DNA of 63,998 nt, filler included, from Dirinaria sp. TL-2023a (GCA_051941275.1; 9 parts of 9 records of this genome joined end to end with filler, not necessarily neighbours in it), one strand, 5' to 3'; counted from the whole stretch's first letter, positions 7,076-36,423 are shown. Notes: generated from the sequence alone by a model not told the origin. A program made the numbers and translations.

Positions 7076-7175
7076 NNNNNNNNNNNNNNNNNNNNNNNNN
7101 NNNNNNNNNNNNNNNNNNNTTAATTAATTAANNNNNNNNNNNNNNNNNNNNNNNNNNNNNNNNNNNNNNNNNNNN
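7076..7175. other. Artificial contig spacer N44-TTAATTAATTAA-N44 (also 14241-14340, 21392-21491, 28539-28638, 35682-35781, 42811-42910, 49930-50029, 57048-57147)
   Basis: Identical 100-nt linker with stops in all six frames; contigs between linkers are sorted by decreasing length. Confidence 0.98.
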
Positions 7176-7254
7176 AACTCTGCATTAGTAGCCCATGTCC
7201 TTTGTGGAATCTGAGGGTGTAGCAATTCGAGTATCGGCTGGCCCCTTTCTTTTG
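7176..7254 (+). ncRNA. Putative Pol III small structured RNA, family A copy 0 (5'-truncated by contig end)
   Basis: AACTCTGCATTAGTAGCCCATGTCCTTTGTGGAATCTGAGGGTGTAGCAATT is identical to the reverse complement of the 12488-12593 copy; followed by T-rich terminator and B box GGTTCAATCC at 7276-7285. Confidence 0.7.
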
Positions 7255-8515
7255 CCTTTTGCGGAAGTGGTCCAGGGTTCAATCCCCACAGAGTTCAATT
7301 CAAATTTTTCACCCCTTTTTCACTTCTTGCTTTCTAAATTATTTTTCGACCTAAAGTTTTCTTTTTTTCCTTTGTCACTTTCGTATCCAAAACTTCAGCC
7401 ATCCCATCGCGTGTCTCTAAAACCAAGAACCGAAGGGGGGAAAAGCAAATCTATACCGCGTACAACCAACCCCTTTCATCCATCCCCACATGACCTTTCC
7501 CACTTTCTATTTTTCTATTAAGGGAGATATGGGATCCTACTGCCGCTGCAACACCTACTCTACTGGCATTCCAGCGCTGCTCACTACTAATTCTCACCTG
7601 GTAATGCATCCGATCCCTATTTCAGTATCTTCGTTTCTATGTCTCTGGCACAATGCGAGTTTTCTAGCAAGAATGGTTTCATGGAGTGATGAGGGACCGA
7701 TCTACCTTGAAAGTGATGCGGTTCAGCAGACTAGTTCTCAAAAGCTGAATGTGACATAAGAAATATCAGAGAGGCATTGATAAATTGACATTGGTAGTTA
7801 GAGGGGAAGGGGATGGGGGGTAATGGGTGGCAGCAAATTGGAGGTGGTTTGGCAGCAAAATATGATGTTGTTGCGTTACTGGGACCCTCAATTTCTTGCT
7901 ACCACCACCAGTGGATAGTAAAAAGGGAATATGAATTCGAGAAAGCAGAGGATGGGCACGGAAAAAGATAGTTGTACGCAGCATGACGCTCCACCCCCCA
8001 CCGTGTGCTCAGACAGATGGCATTAATGGGCTCTCTGTGTCGCAGCTCCGCTATGAGTTTGGGGTGGGTGAGACGTGAGCATAGAGGATGGATAGACGGA
8101 GTCTGGGATCGGACATGGTGAGATATCGAATAGCAGAGTTCGTGCCAGAGTGGAGTGAAGTAGATTTGATATTGTGAGCCTTAATTGGTCTTAAACTAAG
8201 GCTATGGACTACCGGATAGAGACAAATCAGATCAAATTTGATCTTGTAGAGAAACTTGATTGTAGTTGTGCCGCCGCCTGGGAAACTTGACGTGTCGGAA
8301 GATGATGAAAACCCGCTCGATTGCCAATGAGATCGCGGAAGCAATAGTGATGGAGTGTAGTTGAGTTAGTCTATGCGTCGAGATCTTCAGATAAAAGTAG
8401 TATGGGATGATGATATACACCCTATACGCGTTCTTCTTAGACTTGCATCGCATTTCGCTCGAGCCAAGTCATGAACCCTTCCAATCCCAGGCTGAATATC
8501 TTGTCTTCAAAGATA

Positions 8516-9406
8516 TCAAGGGTAATTCCGAGGACCGAGGAGTGAGGGAAGTTCGAAGTATGTCCATGCTGCAATGCCTCCTGAATATTCTGTGAGATCT
8601 ATGTCGATATCCATGAACACACTCTCCGTGTCATAAGATGCTAGAAATACAAACTCAAACGAGCATTTCAGCGGGCTGACCGATTGGCCGCGAAAGAAAG
8701 GTTCATACTGATTATTATAGCACCGTTCATGGCTTGTTTGATAGTCCTGATTGAGTGCTGGAATGAGTGCCTCAGCCAGATCTCGGACCCACGAAAGGAC
8801 CTCAGATGTTACGGATACTCGATTCTGTTGTACCATTCCGATTCCAAATCGCCAGCGACCGAAAATGGTTGGAGATTTGCGTTGGCTCTATAAGTTAGAT
8901 GTCCCAACGTCTCTGTTAACACCCTCGATGTATTGTACGTCTCTCGTGTGTCACGTCCCCACAGATCAACGAAGCTGCATTCAATCGCAAAACCTTTTAT
9001 CAGCTTGATGATATTCTTATTGGATACCTCTCACGAAATTAAAAATATGAGCGAAAGGTCCTGCAGGGAGGTGAAAGCTATTCGAAGCGTAGTACAAATG
9101 GTAGCCTTCTTCACAAGCTTGCTGGCAGGTTGCAAGGATCTGAACACCGTGATGTGATTTGGGTCGAGTGTCTGGACCCTGCCCAGGACCGGTGGCAGGT
9201 GGAAAATAGATGTGTCCAGGACGCAACACGAGCTTCGTGATCACATCACGGGTTTCGCGAGGAAGGGAATGGTAACCGAAGCCTGGGACGGTACCTGGTT
9301 GAGTCCTGGATAAAGATGTCAGAGTAGACCGTGGCAAAGGATATTTGGAGCGCACCGGGTAGTTCGAACTTTTGAACCTCATGTTGGAAATTGTCACTCC
9401 ATGCAC
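8516..9406 (-). pseudogene. Degenerate gene for a fungal protein with an F-box-like LPRExR N-terminal motif
   Basis: GFGYHSLPRETRDVITKLVL...ILATCQQACEEGYHLYYASNSFHLP resembles common fungal hypothetical families; reading frame broken by TAA at 9017 with protein-like sequence continuing in another frame. Confidence 0.4.
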
Positions 9407-12400
9407 ATTACCTATTTATTATTAGCTAGGCAAGTGGTCAGATACTAAATATTCGCGACCCTTTTTAAGGGGTAAAAGTTATTATAGTTAAATAGGGGCC
9501 CAGTAGGGCCCAGAAAACATCATGGCGTTCAACGATTTCTAACACCTCACTAGTTGACGGCTCATCGATCGCAGACAAGCCTTGGGCGCCCTCGTCTTGA
9601 ATGCAGTCTGTCGGCTCTGGCAAGTACGGGGACTGAACTTTAGTGTTCATGGGTGCACCAAGGTCACTAGAGAGCTTTTCCAACTGAGAGAAGCTCCCCG
9701 CATCCTCTTCTTGCGTAGTATTAGGCTAAGTTTTGTTGCTAGTACGAAGATAATGACCGTCTCTTGGTGCACTGTTAGTCCTTGCTTCGAGATAGAAGAC
9801 AGAGAAGGTTTTGAAAGCGATATTAAAATCACCTTAACGGAACAATGACCTACAACGTGATATGACATCGCTGTGTGTTATCGATATATCAGAAATATAG
9901 TGCCGAAATTCAAGAGGCTCCCTGTACTCAACCCATAGTTCACTCAGACGCCATCACCAAGACATCACGGAGGCAAGCCTTCATTATAATGAAGTTGGAT
10001 CACAGGTGTAAATCGTTCTCGCAGGCTGAGCTGGCAGGCGGTTCTCTATTGACTGAATCAAGCAAATAAGAGGTGTCTAGACGCATAGACGCCTAGAATT
10101 ACACAATTTCAGTATGGGTGTCTATGACTGTTATGGAAAGAAGTCCATGGAACGCGGTGTTAGAAAGACTGGTGGCAACTGACATGGCACAAGAACCCTC
10201 TCGTTAGGTTCTTAAAGTCGAGTTCTGCTCTTCTTCTAAGGTGTAATTAGTCAAAATCTGTTTGCAAATACTGCCACCAACATTATCTTCAAAAGAAGAA
10301 TCGCTACCATAGAGCAGAAGTTGAAAACGCCAAAAGTGCTATGAATAGAATTTCAGCTGAAGCATTGACAGTGGTTCTATCTAACAACGCGAATTCTTAA
10401 CTTACGCAGAAGGAGATATAGGATCGACAGATGCTAATTCTATCAAAAATTCGGATGGGTACTAATTTCCTTGAAAAAATGAATTGATATCGACTTCTTA
10501 TGAGGGAAAAAGGGGAAGAATCATCAATGAGCCGGTAATCTAGGAGAACCATACAATATATCGATGTTCGTGCTGGATGCGTCAACTACAGGATCAGTAT
10601 GAATGTGTAGCAGTCGAAAGGAATGCTCCGATCACGGTTTCATCTCATGGTTTTCGCCGCCAACGTTAGTGGCAGGCAGAAGGCACAATTGAGTCAATCT
10701 TGACTGCCTGTCAAGTGTGACAGCACAATCGCATCATGGCTTAAGACCCTTAGAGATAGGTCCACAGGGATATAATTAAGTTTAATAACTGCGAGAAATC
10801 GAAGTGATTAGTCTAAGGATTCTCTACTATTCTGCGGCTTATTGATCAGGGTTTAGTCAAGGATCTCACACCAGGTTTCAAGAAGCGTAGAGAAGGCACA
10901 AACTTGTCAAGTTCCCATAGCGGAAGAAAGCATCCTGCATAAAAGAGTTTGCCTCCTTCGCTCAGACAATATCGACAGAGAAGATGTCAAGCGCTAGGCA
11001 TGGCCATCATGTGCATTTTTTTGGAACGGGGGTGTTTTTAAGATAAGGGCGTGTCCACGTGACTGAGATTAACGTGAAGCATACCCTGCCATTAATAAGT
11101 CGTTTATAGCTCTACTGAAAGGTATTTCACTGTACAGGTGACTCCAATGAGAGGTGAAACGGTTCCTGCTTAGTATTCCAACATTGATAGAGATGAGAGC
11201 ATGGAAATTACTTACGTCGTCCGATCGCGGCGTCGCAAACTAGGCAATGCAACGAATTAATATCGATTCAGTGCCTAGCTGAGCCAGAGGGCAGTGTCTT
11301 GATGTTTATGCCTAGGCCATCAGGGTCATCGATGTCACCCTGGATGTCACCTCCGCTGTCCAAATCTCGATGTGTGCGCCCGATTGCCATTGTGTGTCCA
11401 TATTGACATGATGATATCGCCACCCTTTCTGATGTGTAATTGCCAACGCATGCGCGTACATATATGAATGTTGCCACGGCATTGCAATTGACTGATCGAG
11501 GCTCGACATTGTGGGCAAATACAACGCCGGCGCCATTATTGCCAACATAAGCGTCTTGGCGTCGGGAGGGGTCAAAAGCCCTTCCTTCTGGCTTTGCGTT
11601 TCCTTCCTTCTTGGGAATAGCAATAGATAGGATTTGACCATCATTGCTGCACTCTATGTTACCGTATCGTTTCAAAGCCGAAGACGGGACAGACTTAAAG
11701 TCCAACCAAGAAAACATGCCTATAACTGTGTGTGCCGCCTTGAGATTGCGTGTGCATGTGCTTTGAGTGATTGTTCCCGGTGCTTCTGCCGATCTCAGCT
11801 GTGTCTTTGCCGGTCAGCGCAGTTTTTCAATCGTCTTTTATCTCATGATCAGGTTCTCCACCAGATCTCACTTATCGACGGATGACTTGGTCCCTTCCGT
11901 TTCAAATCTATAGGGACATCGAAGTCCAGTATTTACTTCAGGGAAGTTGACTCAGGACCACCCGGAGCCAAGAACCTGTTTGGCTTGGAGCATCTTATTC
12001 ACAGAGACACTGCAGTTCGAGGTCCGTCAGAGGAACCCGCGTTCTAGATATGCTGGACCTGTATGATGCAATTTAGCAGTGCTTTGGACAGTGTGTATGG
12101 CGACGAGTATACGTAGCACCTTCAGCACCTCCTCTTGCTTTCACAAGTGCTTTGATATCGTCTGCGTCCATTATTACATTTGATTTTGCGTTGCGGAAGC
12201 TTTCGTGTTGCACATCAGCTCATCCGCTCCAAATATAGTCGCATATGAGTAGGTAGAGGGACTTATTAACGCGAAGTTGCAGCATTGGCCTTTGATGCAA
12301 TTGCTGTATTGTTAAATATGTAGTCTGATCTGACGCCGACGAAGACCCAAATCAATCATGTCGCTTCTGGTTCCAAGAAAGTATCGAAAGGAACATCGTG

Positions 12401-12487
12401 GAGTAGATTGTGTTAAGGAACAAGGAAAAAGGAAAAGAAAAAGAAAAAAGTTGACTAACCCGAGAATCGAACACTGAGCAAAAAAAA

Positions 12488-12593
12488 GACGGCTACCGAT
12501 ACCCCAATTGCTACACCCTCAGATTCCACAAAGGACATGGGCTACTAATGCAGAGTTGGAGCTCTGTTCAACTTGAACCAACACGGCTGCCGT
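12488..12593 (-). ncRNA. Putative Pol III small structured RNA, family A copy 1
   Basis: 5' ACGGCAGCCG pairs with 3' CGGTAGCCGT; A-box-like CAGCCGTGTTGG; T8 terminator (A-run 12480-12487); B box GTTCGATTC downstream at 12464-12472; AT-rich TATA-like element about 30 nt upstream. Confidence 0.75.
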
Positions 12594-12779
12594 GAAAACC
12601 TTGGGTAATATTATTTTACATAAATACAAATTTTTTTGTTTTCCATTGGGCGATCCTTCGTTAATTTGCTTCTGACTAACGACCATATCCCTTCTATCTC
12701 TTTACTGTCCTTACTCTATGTTTTTACCAAAAAAAAAGCTCATTTGACCTCTGTCTGAATCGAGCACTGCGCAAAAAAA

Positions 12780-12889
12780 GGGGCAGCCGATACCCCAATT
12801 CCTGCCTCCTCAGATTCCACAAAGAATATAGACTGTACGATGCAGAGTTGGAGCTCTGATCAAATTACATGAACCACCACGGCTATCGT
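12780..12889 (-). ncRNA. Putative Pol III small structured RNA, family A copy 2 (most diverged)
   Basis: 5' GATAGCCG / 3' CGGCTGCC stem; T7 terminator (12773-12779); B-box variant GCTCGATTC at 12757-12765; TATATA at 12911-12917. Confidence 0.75.
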
Positions 12890-13139
12890 AAAATATCTCC
12901 TTCAAATAATTATATATGAATTTACAAATATAGTCTTGATATTTTGTAATAGATAGTTGTATCCTTATCAAGGGACGTCGGGCAGGGATGACTTAGCGAG
13001 GGCAACACAAACAAGATGAATAAATGAAAAACCTTGTATTTTTTGTTTGAAGCAAAATCAGAAAAGAGCTGGCTCCAAAAAAAAAAAAAGGTTAAGGTTG
13101 CTTAACCTCTGTCAGAATCGAACACGGCTCCAAAAAAAA

Positions 13140-13249
13140 GTGGGCGACCGATACCCCAATTGCTACACCCTCAGATTCCACAAAGGACATAGGCTACTAA
13201 TGCAGAGTTGGAGCTCTGTTCAAATAACTTGAACCAACACGGCTACCGT
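13140..13249 (-). ncRNA. Putative Pol III small structured RNA, family A copy 3
   Basis: 5' GGTAGCCG / 3' CGGTCGCC stem; A-box-like TAGCCGTGTTGG; T8 terminator (13132-13139); B box GTTCGATTC at 13115-13123; TTTATATAA at 13271-13279. Confidence 0.75.
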
Positions 13250-13594
13250 GAAAATCTTTGCAATATTATCTTATATAAACACAAAATCTGATTTCTTTTA
13301 CCGAACCGCGAATTTGCACTGTGCTGATCGTATAATCAATTGACGACCTGTCACATCTACAGTATTTTATGTTGTTCTTGCTCTTTGAATTTTGTAACTC
13401 TGTATACTAACCACCAAGCGAAGCTGCCTGAATGGCTCTTCCTATCTTCAGCACGTCGATGCAATAATTCAAGTATAGAATCTAGTCCTACCCAAAACCA
13501 TGTTCTCGACTCTATTTGATAATAAGTGCTTAGGTCCAAGCATAAGGACTTCAAAATCAACGTTTCTCAACAAGATCTATCACGCTCTAGATTA

Positions 13595-14119
13595 TCACGC
13601 AAGCAGTAATGATGTCGGTGAATACATGATCATTATTCTACCAGTATTACATGAAAAAGCCAATGCGCATGACAAGGAAAAATCACCGCAAGAAATGGAG
13701 GCAAAGGTCAGTTCATCAAGTGGCTTTGGATGAGCTTCTGTCTTGACATACATGGAGGGAACCCCCTTTTTGACAGCGAATAAGATCATCATTTCACTCA
13801 CAGGACACAGGATCTGTGTCCTTGGTGCTAGAAGGTAGCTCTTCAGTTTAAAAGATCTACCGATATACGTATCCTGTATTTGGTTTTGGACCTCTGTTGA
13901 TCTGTGCGGGCATACTAGATGGGTAGAGACATTTACAGATACTTCTCGAGGACCCCAGGGCTCACGGAGGAAGAAACGAATGGGAACAATTCTTATTGTA
14001 GCGTCGGAAAGCACCCCTTCCCACCGCCTGACCTTGTTGTTAGCTAAAGCACTGGATGGTAGTTGATGTTCGGCCATTGTCCCAAGACCTTGATTGTGAA
14101 AGCTAATCTTGTTGAGCAT
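13595..14119 (-). CDS. Possible fragment or relic of a hypothetical protein gene
   Basis: 174-codon ORF near the contig end; no firm motif recognised. Confidence 0.2.
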   Translation of the reverse strand: MLNKISFHNQGLGTMAEHQLPSSALANNKVRRWEGVLSDATIRIVPIRFFLREPWGPREVSVNVSTHLVCPHRSTEVQNQIQDTYIGRSFKLKSYLLAPRTQILCPVSEMMILFAVKKGVPSMYVKTEAHPKPLDELTFASISCGDFSLSCALAFSCNTGRIMIMYSPTSLLLA

Positions 14120-15992
14120 TGACTTATCTTATGAGATGTTGATGCCGAATACGATCTTGCTTACTGGAAGGGAAAAGGAAATTGTCATACTAAGACTGAG
14201 TCCCAGTGCAAGGCTCTGTATCCTCGCTGGAAAAGCTTCCNNNNNNNNNNNNNNNNNNNNNNNNNNNNNNNNNNNNNNNNNNNNTTAATTAATTAANNNN
14301 NNNNNNNNNNNNNNNNNNNNNNNNNNNNNNNNNNNNNNNNACTGATGAATGGCTGACGTTCTTAAACAGTACATGCTCCCTAGCTCTCTATTTCAGTTTT
14401 AGAAAAATCAAGGTTGTCTACAACAGAATGAGGAAGATGTTTAAAGCACCGAGAGGGTAGTCGAAATAGCTGCTCGCTCTCCCAGACTTAGGATGATAGG
14501 GTTCCGTCACCAAAGACTATTCTTAGTATCGAATATATATCATTCATAACGGCCTCACTGCAGGTCTTTATAATTTGGTCGATCTGACAGGGCTATATGG
14601 TTGCTGATTGGCCTTCATTGCCGATTTGATTCAGATTTGATCCATATGACATTCCTCCGTGTGGGTAGAACAGCACGCTAGTGTTTCAATTTCAGGCTTT
14701 GGGGGCGATTGCTGTATATTCGAGAGCATGTCCCAGTGAATTCGATAGGAAGGTTGTGCTCGTGCCCAGGACTTGAGATTTCGGAGGTACATAGCGGTGC
14801 GAGAGGCCTACCAAATCATTCAAAGGATTATATCATGGCGGCACAGGTCCTTGTCAATAGCTGCGAACCTAGTCTAATATACCATGTAGTAGATTTATTC
14901 TTTGCTGAAAATAATCCGGTATAAATTCTCGTGGGCGAGACGCTCAATATCCTGATGCTTTGTCACACTCTCATGAATTCCATTGTCGATGAACAAAGAA
15001 TCTTATTCTCAATCTCAGCGCTCCTGTCCGAATCTTCTTTCAAAATGGCTGCATCAGGTTTTCTTTGTCATGGATACTTAAACGCCGATCTTGCTTCAAC
15101 AAATGCTGTAAAAACATTTTCAACTTCTAGACTCAGCACGGACTGAGAAACCCATCATCATGTTCCACTCATATTCTAAATACTGCCTGCTGTCGATTGC
15201 TAGATTGAAAAATTGCTGTCAAGACGTCTTACTGTTTTTGTAATATTCGATCGCTCAGCATACGTCTCGCATTAACGGCTCGTTCGGTATTCTCGAATGT
15301 AAGGCCCGCCCTTGTTCAAGCAGATGTGTTGCCCCATAGTGTTGTGCCTAGAGTGTTGCTTGGCACTAGCGTGGTTGCCTCGGTGAGTTCTACATATGTA
15401 GAACTCACACAGATACATTCATAGACTTTTGACAATGGCATGCTTCATGTATGCTAGCAAGTGCATTGCTCAGTGCTTCAACAGCCCTTTGTTCAAGCAA
15501 GACATGGAAACCATCGATCCTTTTGAGGTTTGTTTTCCCATCTCTCGTTCTCCCTATCCGACGTTCTCTTTGCGCTTTGGTCACCCTCCAACTATGATTT
15601 CACTGCATTGTCCCTGTCATCATGCTTGCTAATGCTGCAACCATGGAGGTCAGTATGAGGTCCCTATATGCATTTAGACTATGCTTACAGCTAAATTTTC
15701 ATTCCTGAAGGGGTTGTCAAATCAGGCGTTTTCCATACTTGAGGCGCCCGATCTGGCAAATCCGACAAGGAATCCGGAGAACATTATCTTCAAGCCGGAA
15801 ATGTAAGATGGTGTTTATGGTGCCTGAAAAATGAGTAGGTAAATTCGAGGTTGAGAGCTTAGAAAATTAAATGAAAGAAGTCTACAATGGAGAAAGATAG
15901 ATAAGGGGGCATAGACAGCTTCATGTAGGCAATGATGAGCCTTGCAGAAAATATTTCGCTGTTCTTGGCCATCTGTTCTGGGCTCTCGCCTA

Positions 15993-21128: not shown

Positions 21129-21491
21129 TTGAAAAGCAATACCCAATTAAAAATTACTTATATATTTTGTGTTTCTCTAACCCTAGAGGTAGGATCAAAT
21201 ATGCAGAATCGGAAAACCAACAATTGCGCCAAGCTGGCTCGGCGCAGCGGAACTGCACATCACCTACCTTAATTTTCGTGCCTCGGCTCAAAACTTCCGC
21301 CCTCAAAAAACCTCCCCATTCATCACATGAATCCGCGTTTCCAGCATCAACCTCCCCTCTCCCCCGTCTCTTCTCTCAAAAAACCTCCCACNNNNNNNNN
21401 NNNNNNNNNNNNNNNNNNNNNNNNNNNNNNNNNNNTTAATTAATTAANNNNNNNNNNNNNNNNNNNNNNNNNNNNNNNNNNNNNNNNNNNN

Positions 21492-25280: not shown

Positions 25281-26936
25281 TCAACGCCCGAGCATGTAGT
25301 CAGGGAATGACCCGCCATGGTTTGCCCATTGATTGCCTTGATTGCCGGCCATGCTACCGCCGGTTGGACTTCTCATCGGCATCCCAAAAGAACTCGCACC
25401 AAAGCCGTTAGCCATCATGTTCGCATGCATTGGGTTGCCCATCCCGTTCATGTTCCCATTCCCTTGGTTTTGGCCAAGTCCGGGTGGAGCAGTCAGCCCC
25501 GGAGGAGGACCGTTAGCGGTAGAGAATGCTGAAATGCTTCCCATTTCATTCATACCAGGCATCGGTCCCTGAGGTGACATGGGGGTCGGCATGCCCATGC
25601 TTCCGGGTTGTCCCGTCCTCACTCCCAGTGGATTCTTGGAGAAGCTCAAACGAATACCGCCCTTAACACTATTGTGGAGGGGGTGACCATAGAGTTCATT
25701 CAAAGCCTTCGTAGCGAACGAGACATCCTCGAATTCTACGAAGCACATGGGGCCGTTCTGTTTTGTCCTGAAACAAAGCCTTTTGTAACCACGTTGCTTC
25801 GAGAACATTGCCTTTAGCTCATCTTCGGACGTATCAATTGGCAAATTGCCCACGTAAAGCGTATTGCAAGGAGGATTCTGATCCGCTGGATTCACAGGAG
25901 GATAATTGTGGCGCTGATAATGCGCATTCGGTAGCTGATATGGCATATTCGGGCCCATATTTGACATGCTTGTTGGCGATAAGGCGGCTGTCGGACTTTG
26001 CATAGGCGGAATCGATCTTGGGGAACCAAAGCCTTGCAGTGGTGGCGAAGTCATACCGTTCGTACTGAGAGACAAGCCGGCAAATCGCGAAGTCGGAAGC
26101 TGGCTGCTCGTAGGACGTCGATTCATAGAGTCAGAAAGATCACTCTTAGCATAAGCGACTGGATCCTTGAGAAGGTCTACAGGCTCGTCATCAGCCCCAT
26201 CTTCTCCGATGACGGCTTTGCCCGATACACGTTGGCGCTCAGGGAAGCCTTGTCCATTGGGCGACTGGGGTGGGAAAAAGCTCTGGAAAGGGGAATTGAT
26301 GTCCGGCGACGGCAATTCGCTTGCGGATAAAGGAGCACCATTTGGCATGTTCATGGATCCATTGCCGGGCGAAATACGATCCATTGGCTGAAAAGCGCCG
26401 TTGTAACGCAAGGACTGGCGCGCAGCTTGTCCGCTGGATGAGTTCGTAGAAGAAGCCGAACTGGTCGCCCCACGATTTGTAGCGTTATCAAAAGTGCCGC
26501 GACGCTGGCCGATACCTCCTGCAGGAGTCAAAGGGAGAACATCAACAATCATGTTGGCTTCATTGGCGCTATTTTGCTTTCCGTCAAGCATATTGCGAGC
26601 CTCATGAGCAGCATTCGATGTTCGGAAGCGTGCGATAGCGGAGAGGTATCCTTTATCATTCGGCGATTCAGTAGGGACAAATTCTGCGCCAATGAAATCC
26701 TTCGCAAACAGCAGCATCGTCCTCACGGCGTCGAGGCTCGTGTGGCGCGGAAGGTTCCGTATGAGAATAGCGGAGGGGCCATCTGCGTCTGCTCGGCCTT
26801 GGTTCATTCCTACGGAAAAATTGTTCGCTTCGACACCGGACTCGAAAGGGCTGATCTGGTTTCTCGATTGCGCTGTCGGCACCCTGAATCCATACTGGTT
26901 AGACCCACTGGTGTTGACAAAGGTTTCAGCTGCCAT
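25281..26936 (-). CDS. RRM RNA-binding protein, Whi3/Whi4/Scw1 family
   Basis: NPADQNPPCNTLYVGNLP...GPMCFVEFED...GGIRLSFSKNPLG signature; intronless 551 aa. Confidence 0.92.
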   Translation of the reverse strand: MAAETFVNTSGSNQYGFRVPTAQSRNQISPFESGVEANNFSVGMNQGRADADGPSAILIRNLPRHTSLDAVRTMLLFAKDFIGAEFVPTESPNDKGYLSAIARFRTSNAAHEARNMLDGKQNSANEANMIVDVLPLTPAGGIGQRRGTFDNATNRGATSSASSTNSSSGQAARQSLRYNGAFQPMDRISPGNGSMNMPNGAPLSASELPSPDINSPFQSFFPPQSPNGQGFPERQRVSGKAVIGEDGADDEPVDLLKDPVAYAKSDLSDSMNRRPTSSQLPTSRFAGLSLSTNGMTSPPLQGFGSPRSIPPMQSPTAALSPTSMSNMGPNMPYQLPNAHYQRHNYPPVNPADQNPPCNTLYVGNLPIDTSEDELKAMFSKQRGYKRLCFRTKQNGPMCFVEFEDVSFATKALNELYGHPLHNSVKGGIRLSFSKNPLGVRTGQPGSMGMPTPMSPQGPMPGMNEMGSISAFSTANGPPPGLTAPPGLGQNQGNGNMNGMGNPMHANMMANGFGASSFGMPMRSPTGGSMAGNQGNQWANHGGSFPDYMLGR

Positions 26937-29900
26937 GCTGTAGGGTGAACTCCTCGGGCAATTGGAGTGAACAGCAAGGACCGCAGCCAGAAGTCCGTAG
27001 TAAAGTCAATTGCTCAGTCAGACGGCTCTCCACGATATCCGACGACTTGGACGGCAAACAGTCGGGTTCATATGATCATAACGCGTCACCTGGGTCTTCC
27101 TATTACGAGTCTGTCTGCGGCCAATATACCGAGCGCGGCGACTTCAGGATGGATAGAAGGCAGCACTGCGACCCTGGCCTGGAACGGATTTGAACGAGAG
27201 ACTTGCGCGTCGATGAGATAGTACTGGTGGAGGATTTCTAAGTCAGCATCAACGGCGCGCGACCCAGAATAAAGTAGATTTTTAGGGATGGGAAAGGTAC
27301 CGCATACAAGGTTTAGACCGTTGCGGACGCGCGCGGAGGTTTGCACAAGGAGCCTGGGGAAGCTTCCAATGGATGATTGCCGGAGGATGCAAGATGGCAG
27401 AACAAGTGGAAAGTCAATCGCTGGTGGCCAGAGATGGTCATCTGTGAGCTGGAGTGGGCAGTAGGTGCGCTTGAGGGAGGTTTCGCATGCGCCTTGTGAA
27501 AATGCGACCGGGCGGGGAAAGAACGAGGAAAGATAGTACTTCTATGGATTGGCGAGCTTGACAGGCAGGGGTGTTGTCGAATAGCGCGTCGCTGATAACG
27601 AAAGAACGAGCTTGATTCGCGCAATGTGGGGGGGTGGGAAGGGGGAGAATGGAAAGAGAAGGCTTCAGTGAGGGGGAAGCAGGTCAAAGGGCGAAATTGA
27701 TATTCTTCTGAATGTGGGTTAAATTTTGATCGTTTTGGAAGTGAGTAAGACGGAGGAAAGAATGAAGTAAGGTAAGGCAGGTAAGGTCGGGTAGGGTAAG
27801 TTGAGTACCTAGATACTTTGGTTTGGATTTTTAGCAGTGCTGGAAGGGGTGTGTCGAGGGTGTGTTTTAGAAAGAAGAGAACAGGGTGGTGGTTCCTAGT
27901 GGGTGCTGTGGACTGTAGTGGGCTGGTGGGCTGTCGAGAGCCGTTGGGGAGCTGCGGGTTGATTGGTCCGTGTCCGACCCAATGCGATTGTTAGCGGGGA
28001 ATTTTAGTGAGAAGCCAATCGTTCCCGCACGACGATCTCGATTGCCAGGTACGAGGACGAGGACGAGTCCGAAGGGGTTAAGGTAGGGAAAGAAATTCTT
28101 GAGTCGGGATGATTTTCCGAGACAAAAGAAAAGAATAATGGGAAAAGACGGATAATCGATCAAGAAGGAGGAAGACTGGAGGGAAAGTGGGAGTGTGTGG
28201 AGTGGAAAAGAGAGAAAAGGTGATTTATCAGGTAAAGTACTGTACTACCGTAAAGTGTAACATGTGAAGGAATCGCAGTGTGAACGGCAGCCCAGAACAA
28301 GACAGTACGCTGATTGGCCTGGAGAGATAAGTATCCTGGACATAGGGCGCATTCACCCAATTCACCCCATGAATATTCAACCACTCCCTCTCTCCCTCTC
28401 TCCCTCTCTCCCTCTGTCCCTCTGTCCCTCTGCAAAATGCCCCCTACGGAAGTACGGAGTTGCGTGGTGATGGCGTTACGGTGGGGCTTGATTTGGTGGG
28501 ATCAAAAAATCACCTTATCAATAATAATGCATTCCGGTNNNNNNNNNNNNNNNNNNNNNNNNNNNNNNNNNNNNNNNNNNNNTTAATTAATTAANNNNNN
28601 NNNNNNNNNNNNNNNNNNNNNNNNNNNNNNNNNNNNNNCCCTTCGCAGCTTCTGTTTTCCTGCTTCCCTTCCCAACATGCCCGTAGTGCAGGCATTCTTG
28701 GGGAGCGGCATCAAACACCCATTATTTCCTTCCACAAAGAAAATTAAAGCTTCCTTAGAAGAGAAAATGCATGGTGCACGCACAGTCCATTTGCTCTTTC
28801 CTGCTGAGCGGCAGTCTACCGTTTTTGCGCCATGACATAAGGTAAGGTAGGTAGGGTAGGTAGCTCCAACAACAAGGTAATTTCTCAGAGCGGCTGAGAC
28901 ACATTATTTGCCCTTACGCGTTGCTTTGTCCTCTTCAGCTTTCACCACTACTGCCCATCGTGCCGGCTTAATCTGCTGGGCATTGACCCATCATTGCCGT
29001 CCTCGCGCAGCTGAGTTCCTTCCTTACATGATATTCCCCTTTAAAGTTCTTTCAAGCGATCTGCGCCGCCGTTACATGCAATAATGCCCACTCACCAAAA
29101 GTAAGCCCGGGCTGCCAAAAAATGATAACGGATCACGTGGGTTTCCCGATTGGGCTGGGAATTAGGGTTTGAATAGATTTCTCCGGTGATTTAAGGTACC
29201 TGTGGTACCTTAGACGTACACTTACCTTACCTTGGGTACCATATCTCACTTCAATAATCGGCAGCAAAGTACAACTCCACGAGTCCGGCAATATTTGGCT
29301 TTTCCTGGATCTCATTTGGGTATCCCGTCCTCCTTGACCAAGCTTATAGACATCTACTATGAGCCATTGTTGGAAGCAGCTAATCCAGCAGATCGAGCTC
29401 TGGCTCCGACTCTGACCCAAAAATCGTTATTTTAGACTAATGTATGGGCTGTATACTGACTCGCTTGCAAATATGCAGGTCAAATGAATCTCAGAAGGAT
29501 CGGTTTCAAGAATTTGGCTGTTCCGAAGTCAGCTTGTGGAGCGGAGCATTATTGCTCTAACTATCTCTTCCTTCAGTGTCTGTTTTCTGGCCTGGTAATA
29601 CTTCGTTTGGCTCAGGTACGGTCGTGACCGAACGAGTCAATTTTTGGATATCTTCAATTCAGGACTTGACGAATGTGTTGTAAAATATTTGGCATGCTCA
29701 AGTTTGACTGTCTGAGTGTCCATCTCCTAGAAACACAGGTGTTTAGATCATTCAAAACTTCCGTACGTCAGCGAACACGAAATCAACCCAACAAGATAAC
29801 TTTCCTGCGACAATTTTATACTTGAAGTCATATGAAAAGGGCGCACAGATCTCTAATAACCCAGAGGCATACCTTACTGCTGACGGTGATATCCAACTGC

Positions 29901-30125: not shown

Positions 30126-33100
30126 ATGTCACTTACCATATACGTAGCTCATACAGGATTGCGACTAGTTGCAGACTCTCGAAAAGTCTCCTCGTAAGCG
30201 TGCGCCTCCTCGTCCATGAGCAGTAGGTTGCTGATAACTTCCACAGTATTGAACAACTGCAGTCATGGGTTTCCCAGAAGGCCTCTATAGATACTTCCAA
30301 CCAGATACTGATGACTGCTCGGGGAAAGCAGGTCAAGCCACAGACGTTGCTGCAAGAGGTAATCAAACCCTAATATCCAGCTGTGCACCGGCTAATTTGA
30401 GAGGAAGACTGAGATATTTGTATACGATAGGCAGATACTGTCACCATCTGCTACAAGAAGCACAAGCGCCCTCCTACCGGTAGCGCGAACTCCTCCAACT
30501 TACAATCTTGGCGAACCTCCTCAGAACTCTACAGAGAGCAAAACCTTTCAAGCATGGCAGATTTTGTTCAAGCAGCGGAGAGCCTGGGCCCTCGAAGTCG
30601 TCGATGTCACTGGGCACTTGGTCGAGGAAGTGAAGGGCGTCGATGCAGAAGCAGGCATAATCCAACGCAGCGCCGCAATTGCGGTCGAGAATGTTAAGCA
30701 ACACGTTGGGAGCTTGAGGCCCCGATACGAGGAGTCAAAAGCGTGGGCCGATAGCGTATTGAAGGATCAGACGTTCCTGCTCAACAACTGGGAAAAAGGG
30801 TTAGGAACGCTTGCGCAGATAACGGTTGTTCCTGAACTTGGCCGATGTCTGTCTGGCGGAAATGACGCTTTTCAGGCGCAAAAGCCAAGCAAACTTCCCA
30901 ACACTACAAATACGCTACATGATTTCGTGCATATAGCAGATGTTCGGAAGGCCAGCTCAATTGCCAAGGACATCTCTGATCGCTTTACTAATCGGGTCGA
31001 GGAGCTAGCTAGTTTATTTGAAGACATCGCGCATGACTCTTTCGATGTTGTCGACAATTTTGGTCAAGTTGTTGCCTTGTCAGACAGTGATGTGGGAGAT
31101 CAGGCAATGCGTCTAATGGAAGAGGTCGAAGTTGTGGCGCGGAAAATCAATGCGGACTACGAGCACACCTTGACCCTTTCGAACTCGCAAAAGTCTGTGA
31201 ATGACATGTCCAGAACTGCTTTGTTACACACTCGCAATTTCTTGCCTGCTTTGCAACAGACAAGTGCGGAGATCGATCAGTTGCTCCGGCATAGCATAGA
31301 ACGAGAAAACGACATCATGTCTTCCGCAATCACCTACTTGCAACGAGTCTCATTGATTGAATCATCAATCGCGCAGGTGCACTCTCAACTAGCAGACCTT
31401 GACGTGGATAACGATGAAGGGCAATCCTTTGATCTGCTCAATCATGTTGTTAAGCTTCCTCTCACCTATGGCTTACTTTTGGTTGAATGTATAAGGCGGC
31501 GTGAGTGGACAGAGAAAATGACCGCGGACTCGTCCGCACTTGTTGAGGAAGTTGCGGTATTCAAAGACGAAGAGGCCAGGAGACGGAAGAAATGGGCGAA
31601 AGACTTTGGTGAAGCAGTCGATCTTGCGTCTATAGATGATATGGCGCTTGGTATTGATATCAACTTACAAGCGCAGAAGCAAAAATGGCCGGACGTCAGC
31701 AGGCAAACCCTCACAGAACTGTTGCAAAGTCTGAAAAGAATCGAAGGATCAGAAGATGCATTGCAGATTATTGACAATGAGTTCCAGACCCTGGATGCTC
31801 CTACCAAACAGCAAACACGAAGGGCTAAGGCCTTCAAGAATGGTAGCGTCTATGATGCATCTTTCGGCAAACAGTCACTCTTACTCCGAGGAAACGAGGA
31901 GCTTGTCGAATCATTGAAAAGTGATAACTCGAAACTTGAGGATCGACTGAAGAGTTCGGAAAGCCGGATTCGGAAGTTAGAAGACTTGCTACACAGACAG
32001 ACGCAAACTTCCAGGCCACCAAGCAGCCACGCTTATAATGGAAATGATGGTCCGGCAACTCCCAGGCATGCCTCATCGCCAATCTCACATTATGTGACGG
32101 CAAAACCTCAAGAAAATAATTCCCGTAGATCTTCCTTATCCTCGCGAAGATTACCGAATGAGTTTGAAGAAAGGGCCTTAGCGCAGAGGATAGTGGATCT
32201 TGAAGCTGAACTAGCTGCCATTAAACAGGATGCAGTCTCCAAAGTGAAAGTCGAGGAAGATCTTAAACGTCAAATACAGGAGGCGCTCTCTACTAAAGAG
32301 GATCTTCTGAACAATATGGAAGCGCAGCAGCGAGAGTTTGACGAAGAGCGTCGACTCATAGAAGAAGAAAATGGCAAATTGAAGATCAAACTAGAGGAAG
32401 TGGAGGATGAGATGGACCGCATGCTCGAAAGTAGGGAACAGGACAACCGAGTTCTCGCACTTGAGGGAGAGCTTGAGACATGGCAGAAGAAAGCGGCTAC
32501 CGAAGCTCAGGATGCGCTAGAGCTAGTCGACCGTCTCAGAGGGGAGCACGCTGGACAGCGAGGGAAGGCGGATGCTCTTCAGCGTCAAGTTCAAGAACAA
32601 GACGAGGAGATAGCTCGGTTGTCCCTGCGGTTGCAGAAGCGAGATCTGAGTGCTGCGACCAACCATAGAGCTCTCCGGTCGGTCATGCTCCGATTGTCGC
32701 AAGATAGCGTCGCACCTGAAGACCTAGACTCTTTAGTGGAGACGGTCGAAGAGCTCGCCCAGCAGTCAGCAGCTCATGCGGCGGAGGTCGAGAGAGCTCT
32801 TGAGACTGCTCGCGCTGACACCGCGGCCCTTGAGACACGACTAACAAGCCAAATCGAAGAGGCATCTGAACTCAAAGAGAGACTTAGGTCTGAGGAGTCA
32901 GCGGCATGTTCACTACGAGAGGACCTGGTTGCGCAAAGGCGGCAAGTCACGGCAGTGCAAACCGAGCTCGAAACTGAACGGAGCGAGCACAGTCAGTTAA
33001 GATCCAAATTCGCGAATGACGAGGCAGATGCAGAATCATTACGCGGATTACTGGCCGTCAAAGAGGAGAAGATTGCCGGTTTGACAGGCAAAATCGCTGA

Positions 33101-34670
33101 ACTGGAAGATGGCATTCGAAACCTGGAAAGCTCAAAGATCCAAATGCAGAACAAGCATCGCGAGACTGAACAAAGCCTGGAGCGCACCTTATCAGATCGA
33201 GAAACAGACCATAAGACCTTGCAGCGGAAGCTTGAGTCAGAAGCGACGGAACGACAAGCTAAGGTAGATGAGCTGCAGGACATGCATTCTGCCCTTAAAG
33301 AGGCTTTCGAGACCCGTGGGCTTCGTGCTGAAGAGGTTTCAGGCCGGCTATACGGCCTCAAAAACAGCCTCGGACGCCTCCTTGAGCAGGTAGGCTTCAC
33401 AATCTCAAAACAGGGCAGCACTATGGTCTTTCAGCGAACATCCAAAGCGGCCACTGCTAGTGCCATTCTAAGTGAGCCCTCTTCAATGGTGCGCAGCGTT
33501 TCCGCGTCTCTTCCAGTACAGAGCGCTTTCGATGCTGCGGTTGATTCGAATTTGCCTCTCTGGACTACCGAAAGCAACCCGAAAGCAGAATCGGAACACT
33601 TTGCGACCTTCATGCACGACATTACTAGCTTTGAATCCGAATCTTTCACCGAAGCTATCATCAAACGGATCAAAGATATCGATCACACAGCTCGCAAATG
33701 CTTCAAGGATGCCCGTGCTTATCGTGACAAGTACAAGCGGGTCCAAAGCGAAACACACGAAAAGATTACGGTGCGGGCGTTCAAGGAAGGTGACCTCGCT
33801 CTTTTCCTACCCACCAGGAACCAAGCGACAAAGCCGTGGGCAGCATTCAATGTTGGCTACCCTCACTACTTTCTCCGAGAGCAAGACTCACATAAGCTTC
33901 CTGGGCGAGACTGGCTGCTGGCTAGGATTAACAAGATCGAACCCCGGGTTGTGGACTTGACTCGATCGATGAGTGGTCTTCGGCCTTCTAGCGATGGCGC
34001 AAGTGAAGTTGCCGTGTCCTTCGACGACGAGAACCCTTTTGAACTCTCAGATGGCCTCAGGTGGAACCTTGTTGACGCAGCTGAGGAAAAACTTGGCCCG
34101 CCAATGTCCATTGGCTCAAGCAAATCCACAGTGGCATCAGCAAATGTGGATGCTACCGGTAGCATTCGGATGAAGAAGAGTAAGGATGGCAATGGTGCAA
34201 CGCTTACACTGGCACGGAGCTTGGATAGCAGAAGGAACAGCTCTAATTCGAAAGTGGGGTCCACTGTCAATACACCTCGACCGACAACGGCGACTGATTC
34301 AGAGGATCGACAAGAACCAGATAAGGCTCGGCAAATAGGGGACAATTCAGCAGCAAAGCTATCACAGCCTGCGCCGTTTGATCAAGTACGAGCCGATCTT
34401 CTCTATGGTCCATGATATTCATACTTCCGCTCCGCAGCTGACCGGACAAACTAGACAAACCCCGCCGTCACGACTTCGCCCAATAAGTCCCAGCCCCGAG
34501 CAATATCACCCTCAAAAGCCTCCCATTTAACCGGCTCGCCATCTAAAGCACCCCTACCACCACCATCTAGTCCGACAACCTCTCGTAAATCCTCACCTGA
34601 GAAACCTAAGCCGAAGGCCTGGGATAGTCTCTGGTCCCTTGACTACAACCTTGAAAGCAGGAAGCATTGA
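30126..34670 (+). CDS. ATG11: Autophagy-related protein 11 (selective autophagy scaffold)
   Basis: Start MSLTIYVAHTG at 30126 with two short 5' introns (30194-30246 and about 30359-30406); long coiled coil; C-terminal claw FKEGDLALFLPTRN...WAAFNVG.PHYFL...DDENPFELSDGLRW; unspliced stop at 34415 or spliced end at 34670. Confidence 0.93.
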
Positions 34671-36423
34671 TCTTTCGTGCTGCTTACTTATTACCGATAA
34701 CAACAGATCCCGTGGGTTTGGGGCTTGGAAGATCCTTAGCGAGGCGTATCGGCGGCTTTGTGTTAGGCACTGGTATTGCCGCGACAACTGTACAGATTTT
34801 TTTCTACAACATGGACTATGTACCTTCAAAAGCTCTTGTTGGAATATTGCATTGCATTGCTTTGAGCGAAATTGCTTTGAGCGAACATCTACCCCTCATA
34901 TTTAGTGGGCTTTTTGGAGTCTCGTATTACTTACTACATTGCCAACGTCATCTGCTATTTTACCATGTAGATCATAGGTACATCTATCTGCACATAGTTC
35001 GAATTACATATCTTCGTTCGGGATCAAGAGAGTCTACCTTGGACTGCCATTATAAAGAGTAGTGAGAATTCCCAAGCGCACTACTGCCTATCAGTCGATA
35101 CTGCTAAATAACGAAAGATCTGGGCATGATGCAAGGCCGGCAAGATGTTACGTATATTAGAGTTGTATGTACGTAGGTAACGTTGAAGTCTCAGCTGAAG
35201 GACAAATACATGGTTGGAATCCAAATTCGTATTTGGTAATCATATCGATTCGAACACTGATTCTGCATTTCATACTGCTTTCACACTAAGAGATCCCTCA
35301 AATGGCTTGACGACGACGCAGTGATTCATGCTCCCAATATCTTCTTTCTTATCCTCGTACCATGATCCACACGACTTGAAGGATGAATCGAATCGATGAG
35401 GACTATTCATTGATGTACTGGTTCATCATCATCTCGTTACTACGATTTTTGTTTTGTTAGAGCGCGAGAGGAAGGAATTATAACCCTAACCCTTGTGAAG
35501 TGAGTTTCGTGGATCTTCTTCAGCTCAATAATTCTTCCCGAGCTGCCAGCGTTCACTAAGGATATCGATATATGGAAGGTAATGCTTGGAACTTACTAAA
35601 GGTTACAACAGGAGGGGAAAAAGCGAGAAGCTGGAGCGAGGTCGGTTGCAATGATTGGAAATATTTGGGGGGCGGGGAACGNNNNNNNNNNNNNNNNNNN
35701 NNNNNNNNNNNNNNNNNNNNNNNNNTTAATTAATTAANNNNNNNNNNNNNNNNNNNNNNNNNNNNNNNNNNNNNNNNNNNNGTTGGCCTTTGGGTGCGTC
35801 GGCCATCCTTTTTTTGTGTGTAGGTTAGGGTGGGAGTGGATGGAGATAGGATGTGCGACTTTGGGGAGCTTTGGTGGTTCACAGGTGTGGTGGGAGCGAG
35901 GGTTTGGTGGGAGGTGATCTGCGCTAGGGATTAAGCGAGGGCTGCTAGGCGCCGTGTCGTTACGGAGTTTATATCACGTGCGCATCCATATACCTTAAGG
36001 TACCTAGGATAAGGTATATGAATACAAGTAAAGCCAATGTGCATATCTTTCGCAGCTCTGTCTGTTCTGCTATAGAGTAGCCCAACCTCAGGTATGTATA
36101 CTATGCGTCACAGCAACTCCTCCATAGCCTTGAGATTAGGACTCCGATACAGACAAACATCTCCATAACTGAAACAAATCTGTGTGTCACTAACAAGCAT
36201 CTGCTTGTCTACCTTGACTCACATCTCTCCAATACACATGATCCACCTTTGCAATAATCCTTCGAAATGAGTCCACGCTGCTCATATATAGTCTCCTTCC
36301 CAAAATCCAACCCTTCCGCCCCCAAACCTCTCTTAAACCCCCATTCCCAGCATTCACGGCCCAGTACACAAATTAGAAACCCCACCCAAAAAAAGGAACA
36401 AAACATCATTCAATTCTCCCACA

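What the first reader, a model, noticed from the sequence alone, without database searches (positions are those of the whole stretch)
12464..13279. Tandem cluster of three non-tRNA Pol III-type structured small RNA genes (family A)
Seen in sequence: three ~105-110 nt homologous units on the minus strand, about 290 and 360 nt apart, with largely unrelated spacers. Consensus is roughly GGYAGCCGTGKTGG-TTCA(loop)TGAAC-AGAGCTCCAACTCTGCAT...TTTGTGGAATCTGAGG...AATTGGGGTATCGGY..CC-T7/8. The 5' and 3' ends pair in every copy despite substitutions. The GTTCA/TGAAC hairpin keeps its stem while the loop varies in length and sequence (AGT, AGTTATT, TGTAATT). CTCCAACTCTGC pairs with GTAGCAATTGGGG in copies 1 and 3 and with GCAGGAATTGGGG in copy 2, where a G-U pair becomes G-C. 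Established knowledge: TATA + A box + oligo-T + B box is RNA polymerase III promoter grammar. Inference: a multicopy, structure-conserved small RNA family that is not a tRNA, 5S, U6 or SRP RNA. It could be a Y/vault-like RNA, a Pol III milRNA precursor as described in Neurospora, or a relative of the uncharacterised Aspergillus fumigatus 'Afu' sRNAs. This is the best candidate for an undescribed system in the window.
Basis: partly seen in the sequence, partly recalled or inferred. Interest (0 to 1): 0.85.

Follow-up and report, generated by a model that had tools for sequence, protein, structure and literature searches.

The report
Orphan Pol III-type small RNA genes
One contig of a lichen-type fungus carries three full copies and one cut-off copy of a ~105-base gene that has every DNA signal of RNA polymerase III transcription and matches no known RNA family, but nothing available here shows that it is expressed or conserved in other species.

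Summary
Three homologous units lie on the minus strand, with RNA bodies at 13140-13247, 12780-12887 and 12488-12591.

Each full unit has the same layout:
- a TATA-like box at -29 to -31;
- an A-box-like TAGCCGTGKTGGT at +3;
- a T7-8 run at about +105;
- a B-box-like GTTCGATTC about 120 nt from the start;
- a second T run.

No other site in the 64 kb has a T run followed by a B box. RNA bodies are 77-92% identical, while distal spacers are at shuffle level.

ARAGORN and Rfam (gathering and E<=10) find no tRNA, 5S, U6, SRP, Y or Afu match. No target-site duplications, C box or A-rich tail were found.

"Structure-conserved" is not shown:
- 0 of 36 predicted pairs covary;
- whole-RNA fold z-scores are -0.3 to -0.7.

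No homologue, sequencing run or paper could be found, so expression and conservation remain untested.

Best reading (0.6): a lineage-restricted Pol III ncRNA gene family with an SNR6-like split promoter.

The window is nine contigs joined by N linkers.

The parts
13140..13247 (-). Copy 3: predicted RNA body (108 nt, GGTAGCC...GCCCAC)
   Evidence: The covariance model scores 136 bits.
13270..13277 (-). Copy 3: TATA box TATATAAG, first T at -30
13233..13245 (-). Copy 3: A-box-like TAGCCGTGTTGGT at +3
   Evidence: It was read by eye against the fungal tRNA A-box TAGCTCAGTTG quoted: 8 of 11 match.
13132..13139 (-). Copy 3: T8 run, the predicted Pol III terminator
13115..13124 (-). Copy 3: downstream B-box-like TGTTCGATTC, at +124
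13077..13089 (-). Copy 3: second T run (T13) after a 10-bp hairpin
12780..12887 (-). Copy 2, the most divergent: predicted RNA body (108 nt)
   Evidence: 125.2 bits.
12909..12916 (-). Copy 2: TATA box TATATAAT, first T at -29
12773..12779 (-). Copy 2: T7 run
12757..12766 (-). Copy 2: downstream B-box-like TGCTCGATTC (weaker, T to C), at +122
12729..12737 (-). Copy 2: second T run (T9)
12488..12591 (-). Copy 1: predicted RNA body (104 nt)
   Evidence: 129.7 bits.
12615..12622 (-). Copy 1: degenerate TATA-like TATGTAAA, first T at -31
12480..12487 (-). Copy 1: T8 run
12464..12473 (-). Copy 1: downstream B-box-like TGTTCGATTC, at +119
12438..12449 (-). Copy 1: second T-rich run (T6, then T5)
7176..7245 (+). 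Copy 4: 5'-truncated copy at the very start of piece 2. Its first 52 nt match copy 1, read by eye. Its first T run is interrupted (TTTCTTTT..TTTT).
   Evidence: (48.8 bits, model positions 41-92).
7276..7285 (+). Copy 4: downstream B box GGTTCAATCC, the best B-box match of the four copies
7305..7309 (+). Copy 4: T5 run after the B box

Best explanation
This is a small gene family for a ~104-108-nt non-coding RNA transcribed by RNA polymerase III. It has at least four copies on one 7-kb contig of a lecanoromycete (lichen-type) fungus. The promoter is split in the manner of yeast SNR6.

Proposed mechanism:
1. TFIIIC binds the intragenic A-box-like TAGCCGTGKTGGT (+3) and the B-box-like GTTCGATTC / GGTTCAATCC. 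The B box lies about 10-30 nt beyond the terminator, 119-124 nt from the start in the three full copies.
2. TFIIIC places TFIIIB on the TATA element at about -30.
3. Pol III starts at the purine about 30 nt downstream and stops in the T7-8 run. The second T run acts as a back-up stop.
4. The product would end in oligo-U, which is the La-binding end.
5. It is predicted to fold as a three-way junction: a 7-pair terminal stem, a short variable hairpin and a ~62-nt long arm.
6. The invariant apical segment CUUUGUGGAAUCUGAGG of the long arm is the most likely recognition surface, for a protein or for a complementary RNA.

Shown here: the repeat, the motif layout, its uniqueness in the window, the stronger conservation of the RNA body than of the flanks, and the absence of any known-family match.

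Inferred: transcription, the polymerase, the RNA ends, the fold, and any function of the RNA.
For: - Layout: 3 of 3 full copies have a TATA-like box at -29 to -31, an A-box-like 13-mer at +3, a T7-8 run, a B-box-like 10-mer at +119 to +124 and a second T run. Copy 4 has the B box and the T runs.
- Uniqueness: in a scan of both strands of the 64 kb for T>=6 followed within 45 nt by a B-box-like word, the only sites were the first T runs of the 3 full units. The two other rows of the output were the second T runs of copies 3 and 2, listed for their A box and TATA.
- Conservation: RNA bodies are 77-92% identical, and +9..+60 is 56-67% identical with 0 of 200 shuffles as high in 3 of 3 pairs. Distal spacers are 39-49%, at shuffle level. 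The spacers have therefore randomised while the body and the B-box module have not.
- Divergent copy: copy 2 keeps all four signals. It also predicts the same long-arm hairpin, with better energy (z -2.65, 2 of 200 shuffles as good). In that arm, 6 variable pairs stay paired and 1 breaks.
- Precedent: TATA, intragenic A block and B block downstream of the coding region is the documented S. cerevisiae SNR6 layout (PMC5855946, passages read).
- Not a retroposed element: 0 of 3 copies have flank repeats above chance, and the transcribed strand ends in T, not A.
- No known family.
Against: - No expression data: no sequencing run was listed.
- No homologue was found in any collection that could be searched, so conservation beyond this contig is unknown.
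- Whole-RNA folds are no more stable than shuffles (z -0.71, -0.35, -0.26). The long arm is significant in only 1 of 3 copies.
- 0 of 36 predicted pairs show changes on both sides. The 8 one-sided changes that keep pairing against 4 breaks are close to what transitions alone would give.
- The copy 1 TATA is degenerate, and the copy 2 B box has GCTC in place of GTTC.
- Upstream similarity of copy 2 to the others is barely above composition-matched shuffles (10/200 and 26/200).
- Gene conversion between neighbouring paralogues could keep the cores alike without selection. The cores of copies 1, 3 and 4 are nearly identical while their last ~12 nt differ.
- The contig has no recognisable protein gene: 0 of 6 ORFs hit Pfam. 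Its assignment to the fungus rests on a tetranucleotide profile that is not an outlier.
Confidence: 0.6

Rival explanations
1. This is a relic or selfish repeat derived from a tRNA gene. It keeps Pol III promoter pieces (A box and B box) but makes no RNA with a function of its own. The copies stay alike through recent tandem duplication and gene conversion.
For: - The A-box-like 13-mer and the B-box-like 10-mers resemble the fungal tRNA consensus quoted (7-8 of 11 and 8-9 of 11, read by eye).
- The 5' module of the RNA and the downstream module share G.GTTC(A/G)...ACAGAG.T, which suggests an internal duplication of a T-arm-like piece.
- The cores of copies 1, 3 and 4 are nearly identical while the ends differ, a mosaic typical of conversion tracts.
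- The contig breaks inside copy 4, so more copies may exist.
- No covariation and no fold-energy signal.
Against: - ARAGORN finds no tRNA with or without introns at default thresholds, and the Rfam tRNA model gives no hit at E<=10.
- Copy 2 is 17-23% diverged in the body with randomised spacers, yet keeps the TATA, the T run, the B-box word and three invariant 14-18-nt blocks. That is hard to explain without selection.
- No target-site duplications and no A-rich tail.
Confidence: 0.17
2. This is a Pol III-transcribed precursor of microRNA-like small RNAs, as at Neurospora milR loci. The ~62-nt long arm would be diced, and the invariant 3' strand (UUUGUGGAAUCUGAGG...) would give the mature small RNA.
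For: - Pol III transcribes the major Neurospora milRNAs from loci with TATA-like elements, poly-T and sometimes A and B boxes (PMC3547838, passages read).
- The long arm is a hairpin of suitable length in all 3 copies.
- Its 3' strand is invariant while the 5' strand varies and stays paired.
Against: - The hairpin is G-U-rich and bulged. It is no more stable than shuffles in 2 of 3 copies (z -0.62 and -0.47).
- The invariant block includes the terminal loop, which mature-strand selection would not conserve.
- The terminal stem and the 5' hairpin are extra parts that a simple precursor does not need.
- No small-RNA data are available.
Confidence: 0.1
3. This is a very divergent member of a known RNA class (5S- or SRP-derived RNA, Y-like RNA, or a Pol III-made snoRNA) that the Rfam models miss.
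For: Lineage-specific Pol III RNAs in other organisms often derive from tRNA, 5S or 7SL (recalled). The three-way junction with paired ends is a common topology.
Against: - No hit to any of 4227 Rfam models at E<=10, even when single units of 155-176 nt were searched.
- No C box RUGAUGA lies in the units: 0 of 32 window matches fall in 12464-13279.
- There is no ACA or Sm-like 3' end (read directly).
Confidence: 0.07
4. It is not transcribed. It would be a local low-copy tandem repeat whose promoter-like words are chance matches.
For: - B-box-like words alone are common: 12 in the window against 8.6 expected.
- AT-rich upstream DNA easily yields TATA-like words.
- There are 17 and 14 T>=7 runs on the two strands.
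Against: - The full ordered set of TATA, A box, T run and B box at fixed distances occurs only at these units.
- The set is kept in the divergent copy 2.
- Conservation peaks exactly between the TATA box and the T run.
Confidence: 0.06

Closest known systems
Saccharomyces cerevisiae SNR6 (U6 snRNA gene) promoter architecture
   Same: An upstream TATA box, an intragenic A block, a T-run terminator and a B block placed downstream of the coding region. A short T stretch lies just after the TATA box. (PMC5855946, passages read; the units here.)
   Different: The RNA is not U6: no Rfam U6 hit at E<=10. The A-B distance here is about 116-121 nt, against about 200 bp in SNR6. The genes are clustered and multicopy.
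tRNA genes (type 2 Pol III promoters)
   Same: A-box-like TAGCCGTGKTGGT and B-box-like GTTCGATTC / GGTTCAATCC words, close to the fungal tRNA consensus TAGCTCAGTTG and GGTTCGATTCC / GGTTCAAATCC (table in PMC12498455, passage read).
   Different: No cloverleaf is found. The B box lies beyond a T7-8 terminator and its flanks do not form a T stem (read directly). A TATA box is present.
Neurospora crassa Pol III-transcribed milRNA loci (milR-1 to milR-4)
   Same: A fungal Pol III unit outside the classical set, with TATA-like elements, a poly-T run and a hairpin-forming transcript (PMC3547838).
   Different: There is no sequence relation. The hairpin is weak in 2 of 3 copies. Extra structural parts are present. 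No small-RNA evidence exists.
Fungal SINEs (for example AfuSINE2 and AfuSINE3 of Aspergillus fumigatus)
   Same: Short, low-copy elements with Pol III promoter features derived from tRNA or 5S (PMC5063351, abstract read).
   Different: No target-site duplications. The B box is outside the predicted transcript. The tail is T-rich, not a simple-repeat or A-rich tail. The three copies in the cluster are in tandem at a 291-361 nt period, with a shared TATA position.
Y RNAs, vault RNAs and other ~100-nt Pol III RNAs with paired ends (recalled, not from a call)
   Same: The size, the oligo-U 3' end, and 5' and 3' ends predicted to pair.
   Different: No Rfam Y_RNA or vault hit. The partner proteins (Ro60, MVP) could not be sought because no genome is held.

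Membership tests
tRNA | Cloverleaf detectable by a tRNA finder or covariance model | tested here: not met
   ARAGORN found 0 genes in the window. It also found 0 in piece 2 with introns allowed at default thresholds; only noise (20-46 calls across 7 kb) appeared at lowered thresholds. There is no Rfam tRNA hit at E<=10.
5S rRNA / U6 snRNA / SRP RNA / Y RNA / Afu_* sRNAs (Rfam models) | Match to the family covariance model | tested here: not met
   0 hits at gathering score in 64 kb. At E<=10 only unrelated bacterial, viral and miRNA noise appears, and none reaches a third of its gathering score (14-21 bits against 50-111).
SNR6-type split Pol III promoter | TATA box about 30 bp upstream of the start | tested here: met
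   TATATAAG at -30, TATATAAT at -29 and TATGTAAA (degenerate) at -31. The start site itself is inferred.
SNR6-type split Pol III promoter | Intragenic A block | tested here: met
   [T/C]AGCCGTG[G/T]TGGT at +3 in 3 of 3 copies. 7-8 of 11 match TAGCTCAGTTG, read by eye.
SNR6-type split Pol III promoter | B block downstream of the terminator | tested here: met
   TGTTCGATTC (two copies), TGCTCGATTC and GGTTCAATCC lie after the first T run in 4 of 4 copies. TFIIIC binding was not tested.
SNR6-type split Pol III promoter | The product is U6 snRNA | tested here: not met
   No U6 model hit. The unit therefore works like SNR6 at the promoter level but is not a U6 gene.
SINE | Target-site duplications flanking each copy | tested here: not met
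   The longest shared flank words are 7-8 nt, reached by 27, 168 and 32 of 200 shuffles.
SINE | Internal A and B boxes both inside the transcribed element, and an A-rich or simple-repeat 3' tail | tested here: not met
   The B box lies beyond the T7-8 run, and the element ends in T on the promoter strand.
SINE | Many dispersed copies in the genome | not testable with these tools
   No whole genome is held. Only 4 copies were found in 64 kb, all on one contig.
Box C/D snoRNA | C box RUGAUGA near the 5' end, paired with a D box CUGA near the 3' end | tested here: not met
   0 of 32 RTGATGA matches lie in 12464-13279. A CUGA exists, but about 35 nt from the 3' end.
Pol III milRNA precursor (Neurospora type) | Stable stem-loop giving Dicer- or Argonaute-bound small RNAs | tested here: inconclusive
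   Long-arm z-scores are -0.62, -2.65 and -0.47. Small RNAs are not testable, because no run was listed.
Structured functional ncRNA (generic) | Compensatory base changes supporting the fold | tested here: inconclusive
   3 sequences only: 0 of 36 pairs changed on both sides, 8 changed on one side and kept pairing, and 4 are broken.

The most novel reading that the evidence does not exclude
A family of structured ~105-nt Pol III RNAs restricted to lichen-forming fungi. It would have been born from a tRNA-type gene whose B box was stranded beyond a new terminator, and it would now make an abundant La-bound RNP RNA. Its invariant apical loop, CUUUGUGGAAUCUGAGG, would recognise a specific protein or RNA target. 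That would be a fungal counterpart of the Y, vault and BC1 type of lineage-specific Pol III regulators, and the first non-U6 gene shown to use the SNR6-style downstream B block.
Probability: 0.3. Interest if true: 0.6.

Novelty: new member of a known kind. Interest (0 to 1): 0.45.

Why it matters
The known Pol III transcriptome of fungi is small: tRNA, 5S, U6, SRP RNA, RNase P RNA and a few others. Filamentous and lichen-forming fungi have barely been surveyed.

A new multicopy Pol III RNA would add a member to that set. It would also show that the unusual SNR6 layout, with the B block beyond the terminator, is used for other genes. And it would give a compact, self-contained Pol III promoter and terminator cassette for lecanoromycetes.

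If the family proves to be only a decaying tRNA-derived repeat, it is of minor interest.

Tried and rejected
- Whole-genome search: no genome is held for this window.
- Sequencing runs: none was listed for 12400-13330, and no RNA holder was listed. Read laying therefore could not be used.
- Metagenome contig scan with a two-block pattern: 2 loci, both chance matches inside unrelated sequence.
- Prokaryote genome contigs: 0 hits with two different two-block patterns.
- Viral contigs: 0 hits.
- Earlier findings of the scan, by place, by sequence, by relatives and by words: nothing.
- Full-text paper search for six 14-15-nt words of the RNA, in DNA and RNA letters: 0 papers.
- Paper searches on fungal or lichen Pol III ncRNAs: nothing that describes such a family. 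These searches cover only the held open-access library.
- tRNA-with-intron reading: rejected.
- SINE reading: rejected, because there are no TSDs and the tail and B-box position are wrong.
- C/D snoRNA reading: rejected.
- Protein context of the contig: 0 of 6 ORFs hit Pfam. The 132-aa ORF at 9020-9415 had no homologue among longer proteins.
- Other Pol III-like units in the other eight pieces: none. The B-box-like words at 35.2, 55.9 and 60.4 kb have no T run or TATA context.

Full report
**What the window is.** The 63,998-base window is not one stretch of genome. It is nine pieces of 6.85-7.08 kb joined by linkers of N with TTAATTAATTAA in the middle. The finding lies in piece 2 (7176-14240).

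An ATG11 homologue in another piece (31107-34415) has its best named relatives in lichen-forming Lecanoromycetes: Heterodermia at 57%, and Pseudocyphellaria, Alectoria and Letharia at about 50%. Unnamed relatives reach 86%.

Piece 2 has the lowest G+C of the pieces (44.3%). Its tetranucleotide profile is not an outlier, with mean correlation 0.69 against 0.67-0.76 for the other pieces. None of six of its ORFs hits Pfam.

**The observation.** Start-to-start spacings are 291-296 and 360-361 nt. The predicted RNA bodies are 13140-13247 (copy 3), 12780-12887 (copy 2) and 12488-12591 (copy 1).

A covariance model built from the three copies scores them at 125-136 bits. Over all 64 kb and both strands, it finds one other significant match. 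This is a fourth copy on the plus strand at 7176-7227, scoring 48.8 bits. It starts in the middle of the RNA because the contig starts there. The next hit scores 14 bits.

The invariant 17-mer CTTTGTGGAATCTGAGG occurs four times against 0.31 expected. A contig breaking inside a copy suggests that further copies exist elsewhere in the genome.

**Anatomy.** Every full copy has the following parts:
- A TATA-like octamer whose first T is at -29 to -31: TATATAAG, TATATAAT, and a degenerate TATGTAAA in copy 1.
- A short T stretch just before the start.
- [T/C]AGCCGTG[G/T]TGGT at +3.
- A T7 or T8 run at about +105.
- TGTTCGATTC (copies 1 and 3) or TGCTCGATTC (copy 2) at +119 to +124.
- A second T run.

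Copy 4 has an interrupted first T run. It is followed by GGTTCAATCC, the best B-box match of the four, and then T5.

Against the fungal tRNA consensus quoted in PMC12498455, the A-box word matches 7-8 of 11 positions and the B-box words 8-9 of 11 (my reading).

I scanned both strands of the window for T>=6 followed within 45 nt by a B-box-like word. The only sites returned were the first T runs of the three full units; the two other output rows were the second T runs of copies 3 and 2, listed for their A box and TATA. B-box-like words alone are not rare, with 12 found against 8.6 expected. It is the ordered set of signals that is specific.

**Conservation pattern.**
- RNA bodies: 77%, 83% and 92% identical.
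- The 52 nt after the first T run, which hold the B-box module: 56-67%, with 0 of 200 composition-matched shuffles as high in all three pairs.
- The 60 nt upstream: clearly alike only for copies 1 and 3 (69%, 0/200). Copy 2 gives 58% against each, with 10/200 and 26/200 shuffles as high.
- Segments further out: 39-49%, which is shuffle level.

The spacers of this array have therefore lost all similarity, while the RNA body and the downstream module have not. This is the main argument for constraint.

The caveat is gene conversion. Copies 1, 3 and 4 are nearly identical in the central 52-62 nt but differ in the last ~12 nt, and that mosaic could reflect conversion tracts. Copy 2 is the better witness. 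It is 17-23% diverged, yet it keeps all four signals and three invariant blocks: AGAGCTCCAACTCTGCAT, CTTTGTGGAATCTGAGG and AATTGGGGTATCGG.

**Structure.** RNAalifold gives a three-way junction of 36 pairs:
- a 7-pair terminal stem;
- a 6-pair hairpin whose loop varies in length;
- a ~62-nt long arm.

Of the 36 pairs, none changes on both sides. Eight change on one side and stay paired (G-U to G-C or A-U), and four are broken in one copy. The breaks include two in the small hairpin of copy 2 and one in its terminal stem. Transitions at G-U or Watson-Crick pairs keep pairing about half the time or more, so 8 against 4 is not evidence.

The full RNAs fold no better than dinucleotide shuffles, with z of -0.71, -0.35 and -0.26. 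The long arm alone is significant only in copy 2 (z -2.65; the others are -0.62 and -0.47). In that arm, 6 variable pairs stay paired and 1 breaks.

A local hairpin, CAGAG/CUCUG, competes with the long-range pairing, and no variation discriminates between them.

The fold is plausible, but "structure-conserved" is not demonstrated. Three close paralogues cannot demonstrate it.

**What it is not.**
- Not a tRNA. ARAGORN finds none in the window. It finds none in piece 2 even with introns allowed, and lowered thresholds give only noise along the whole contig.
- Not any Rfam family. There is no hit at gathering score in the window. At E<=10 on the 1.1-kb region, or on single units of 155-176 nt, only unrelated bacterial, viral and miRNA models appear, at 14-21 bits. 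That excludes recognisable 5S, U6, U6atac, SRP, Y, vault, RNase P/MRP and the Afu_* families.
- Not a box C/D snoRNA. No C box lies in the units.
- Not a SINE. There are no target-site duplications. The promoter strand ends in T, not A. The B box lies outside the predicted transcript. Three of the four copies are in tandem and share a TATA position.

**What it most likely is.** The layout of TATA box, intragenic A block, T-run terminator and B block downstream of the coding region is that of the S. cerevisiae U6 gene SNR6. [quoted passage not shown] Here the A-B distance is about 116-121 nt, against about 200 bp in SNR6.

I therefore read the units as Pol III genes with an SNR6-like split promoter. 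They would make a ~104-108-nt RNA with an oligo-U end. The invariant apical segment of the long arm would be the likely functional surface.

The 5' module of the RNA and the downstream module share G.GTTC(A/G)...ACAGAG.T. Together with the tRNA-like A and B words, this hints that the family arose from a tRNA-type gene in which the B box ended up beyond a new terminator. That origin is an inference, at about one chance in three.

The flanks of the B boxes do not form a T stem (my reading). This fits a role at the DNA level only.

**What could not be done.**
- No genome is held and no sequencing run was listed.
- The only eukaryote-containing collection, the metagenome contigs, gave two chance matches. 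The prokaryote and viral collections gave none.
- The scan's own index gave nothing.
- No paper in the held library contains words of the sequence or describes such a family.

Expression, the RNA ends, copy number and conservation in other Lecanoromycetes are all open. The claim that the family is undescribed rests on Rfam 15 and on these searches only.

**Verdict.** The Pol III-gene reading is well supported by the DNA grammar and by the conservation pattern. The structural and functional claims are not yet supported.

It is best filed as a new family within a known kind: lineage-restricted Pol III small RNA genes with an SNR6-type promoter. Interest is moderate at 0.45. It would rise with an RNA-seq signal and with orthologues that show covariation.

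Noticed in passing
window 7076-7175, 14241-14340, 21392-21491, 28539-28638, 35682-35781, 42811-42910, 49930-50029, 57048-57147: The window is nine separate pieces of ~7 kb, in descending length, joined by N runs around TTAATTAATTAA. The apparent 7.1-kb periodicity (repeat family D1) is this linker. Adjacency across the linkers is artificial.
   Followed up: yes
window 7176-7320 (+): A fourth family member is cut at its 5' end by the contig start. It has an interrupted first T run and a near-canonical B box, GGTTCAATCC. An assembly break inside the repeat suggests more copies elsewhere.
   Followed up: partly
window 31107-34415 (+): An ATG11 homologue (Pfam ATG11 and ATG17_like). Its closest named relatives are lichen-forming Lecanoromycetes, which places the source organism.
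   Followed up: partly
window 40850-42730 (-), 25281-26936 (-), 61665-63155 (+): ORFs with RRN9 (Pol I initiation factor), RRM_1 and C2 domains. These are ordinary fungal genes in other pieces.
   Followed up: no
window 13087-13110 (-): In copy 3 only, a perfect 10-bp hairpin (AGAGGTTAAG/CTTAACCTTT) lies between the B box and the T13 run. It is not shared by the other copies.
   Followed up: no
window 9020-9415 (-): A 132-aa open frame on the same contig. It has no Pfam match and no homologue among longer proteins. Apart from the RNA genes, the 7-kb contig looks gene-poor.
   Followed up: partly
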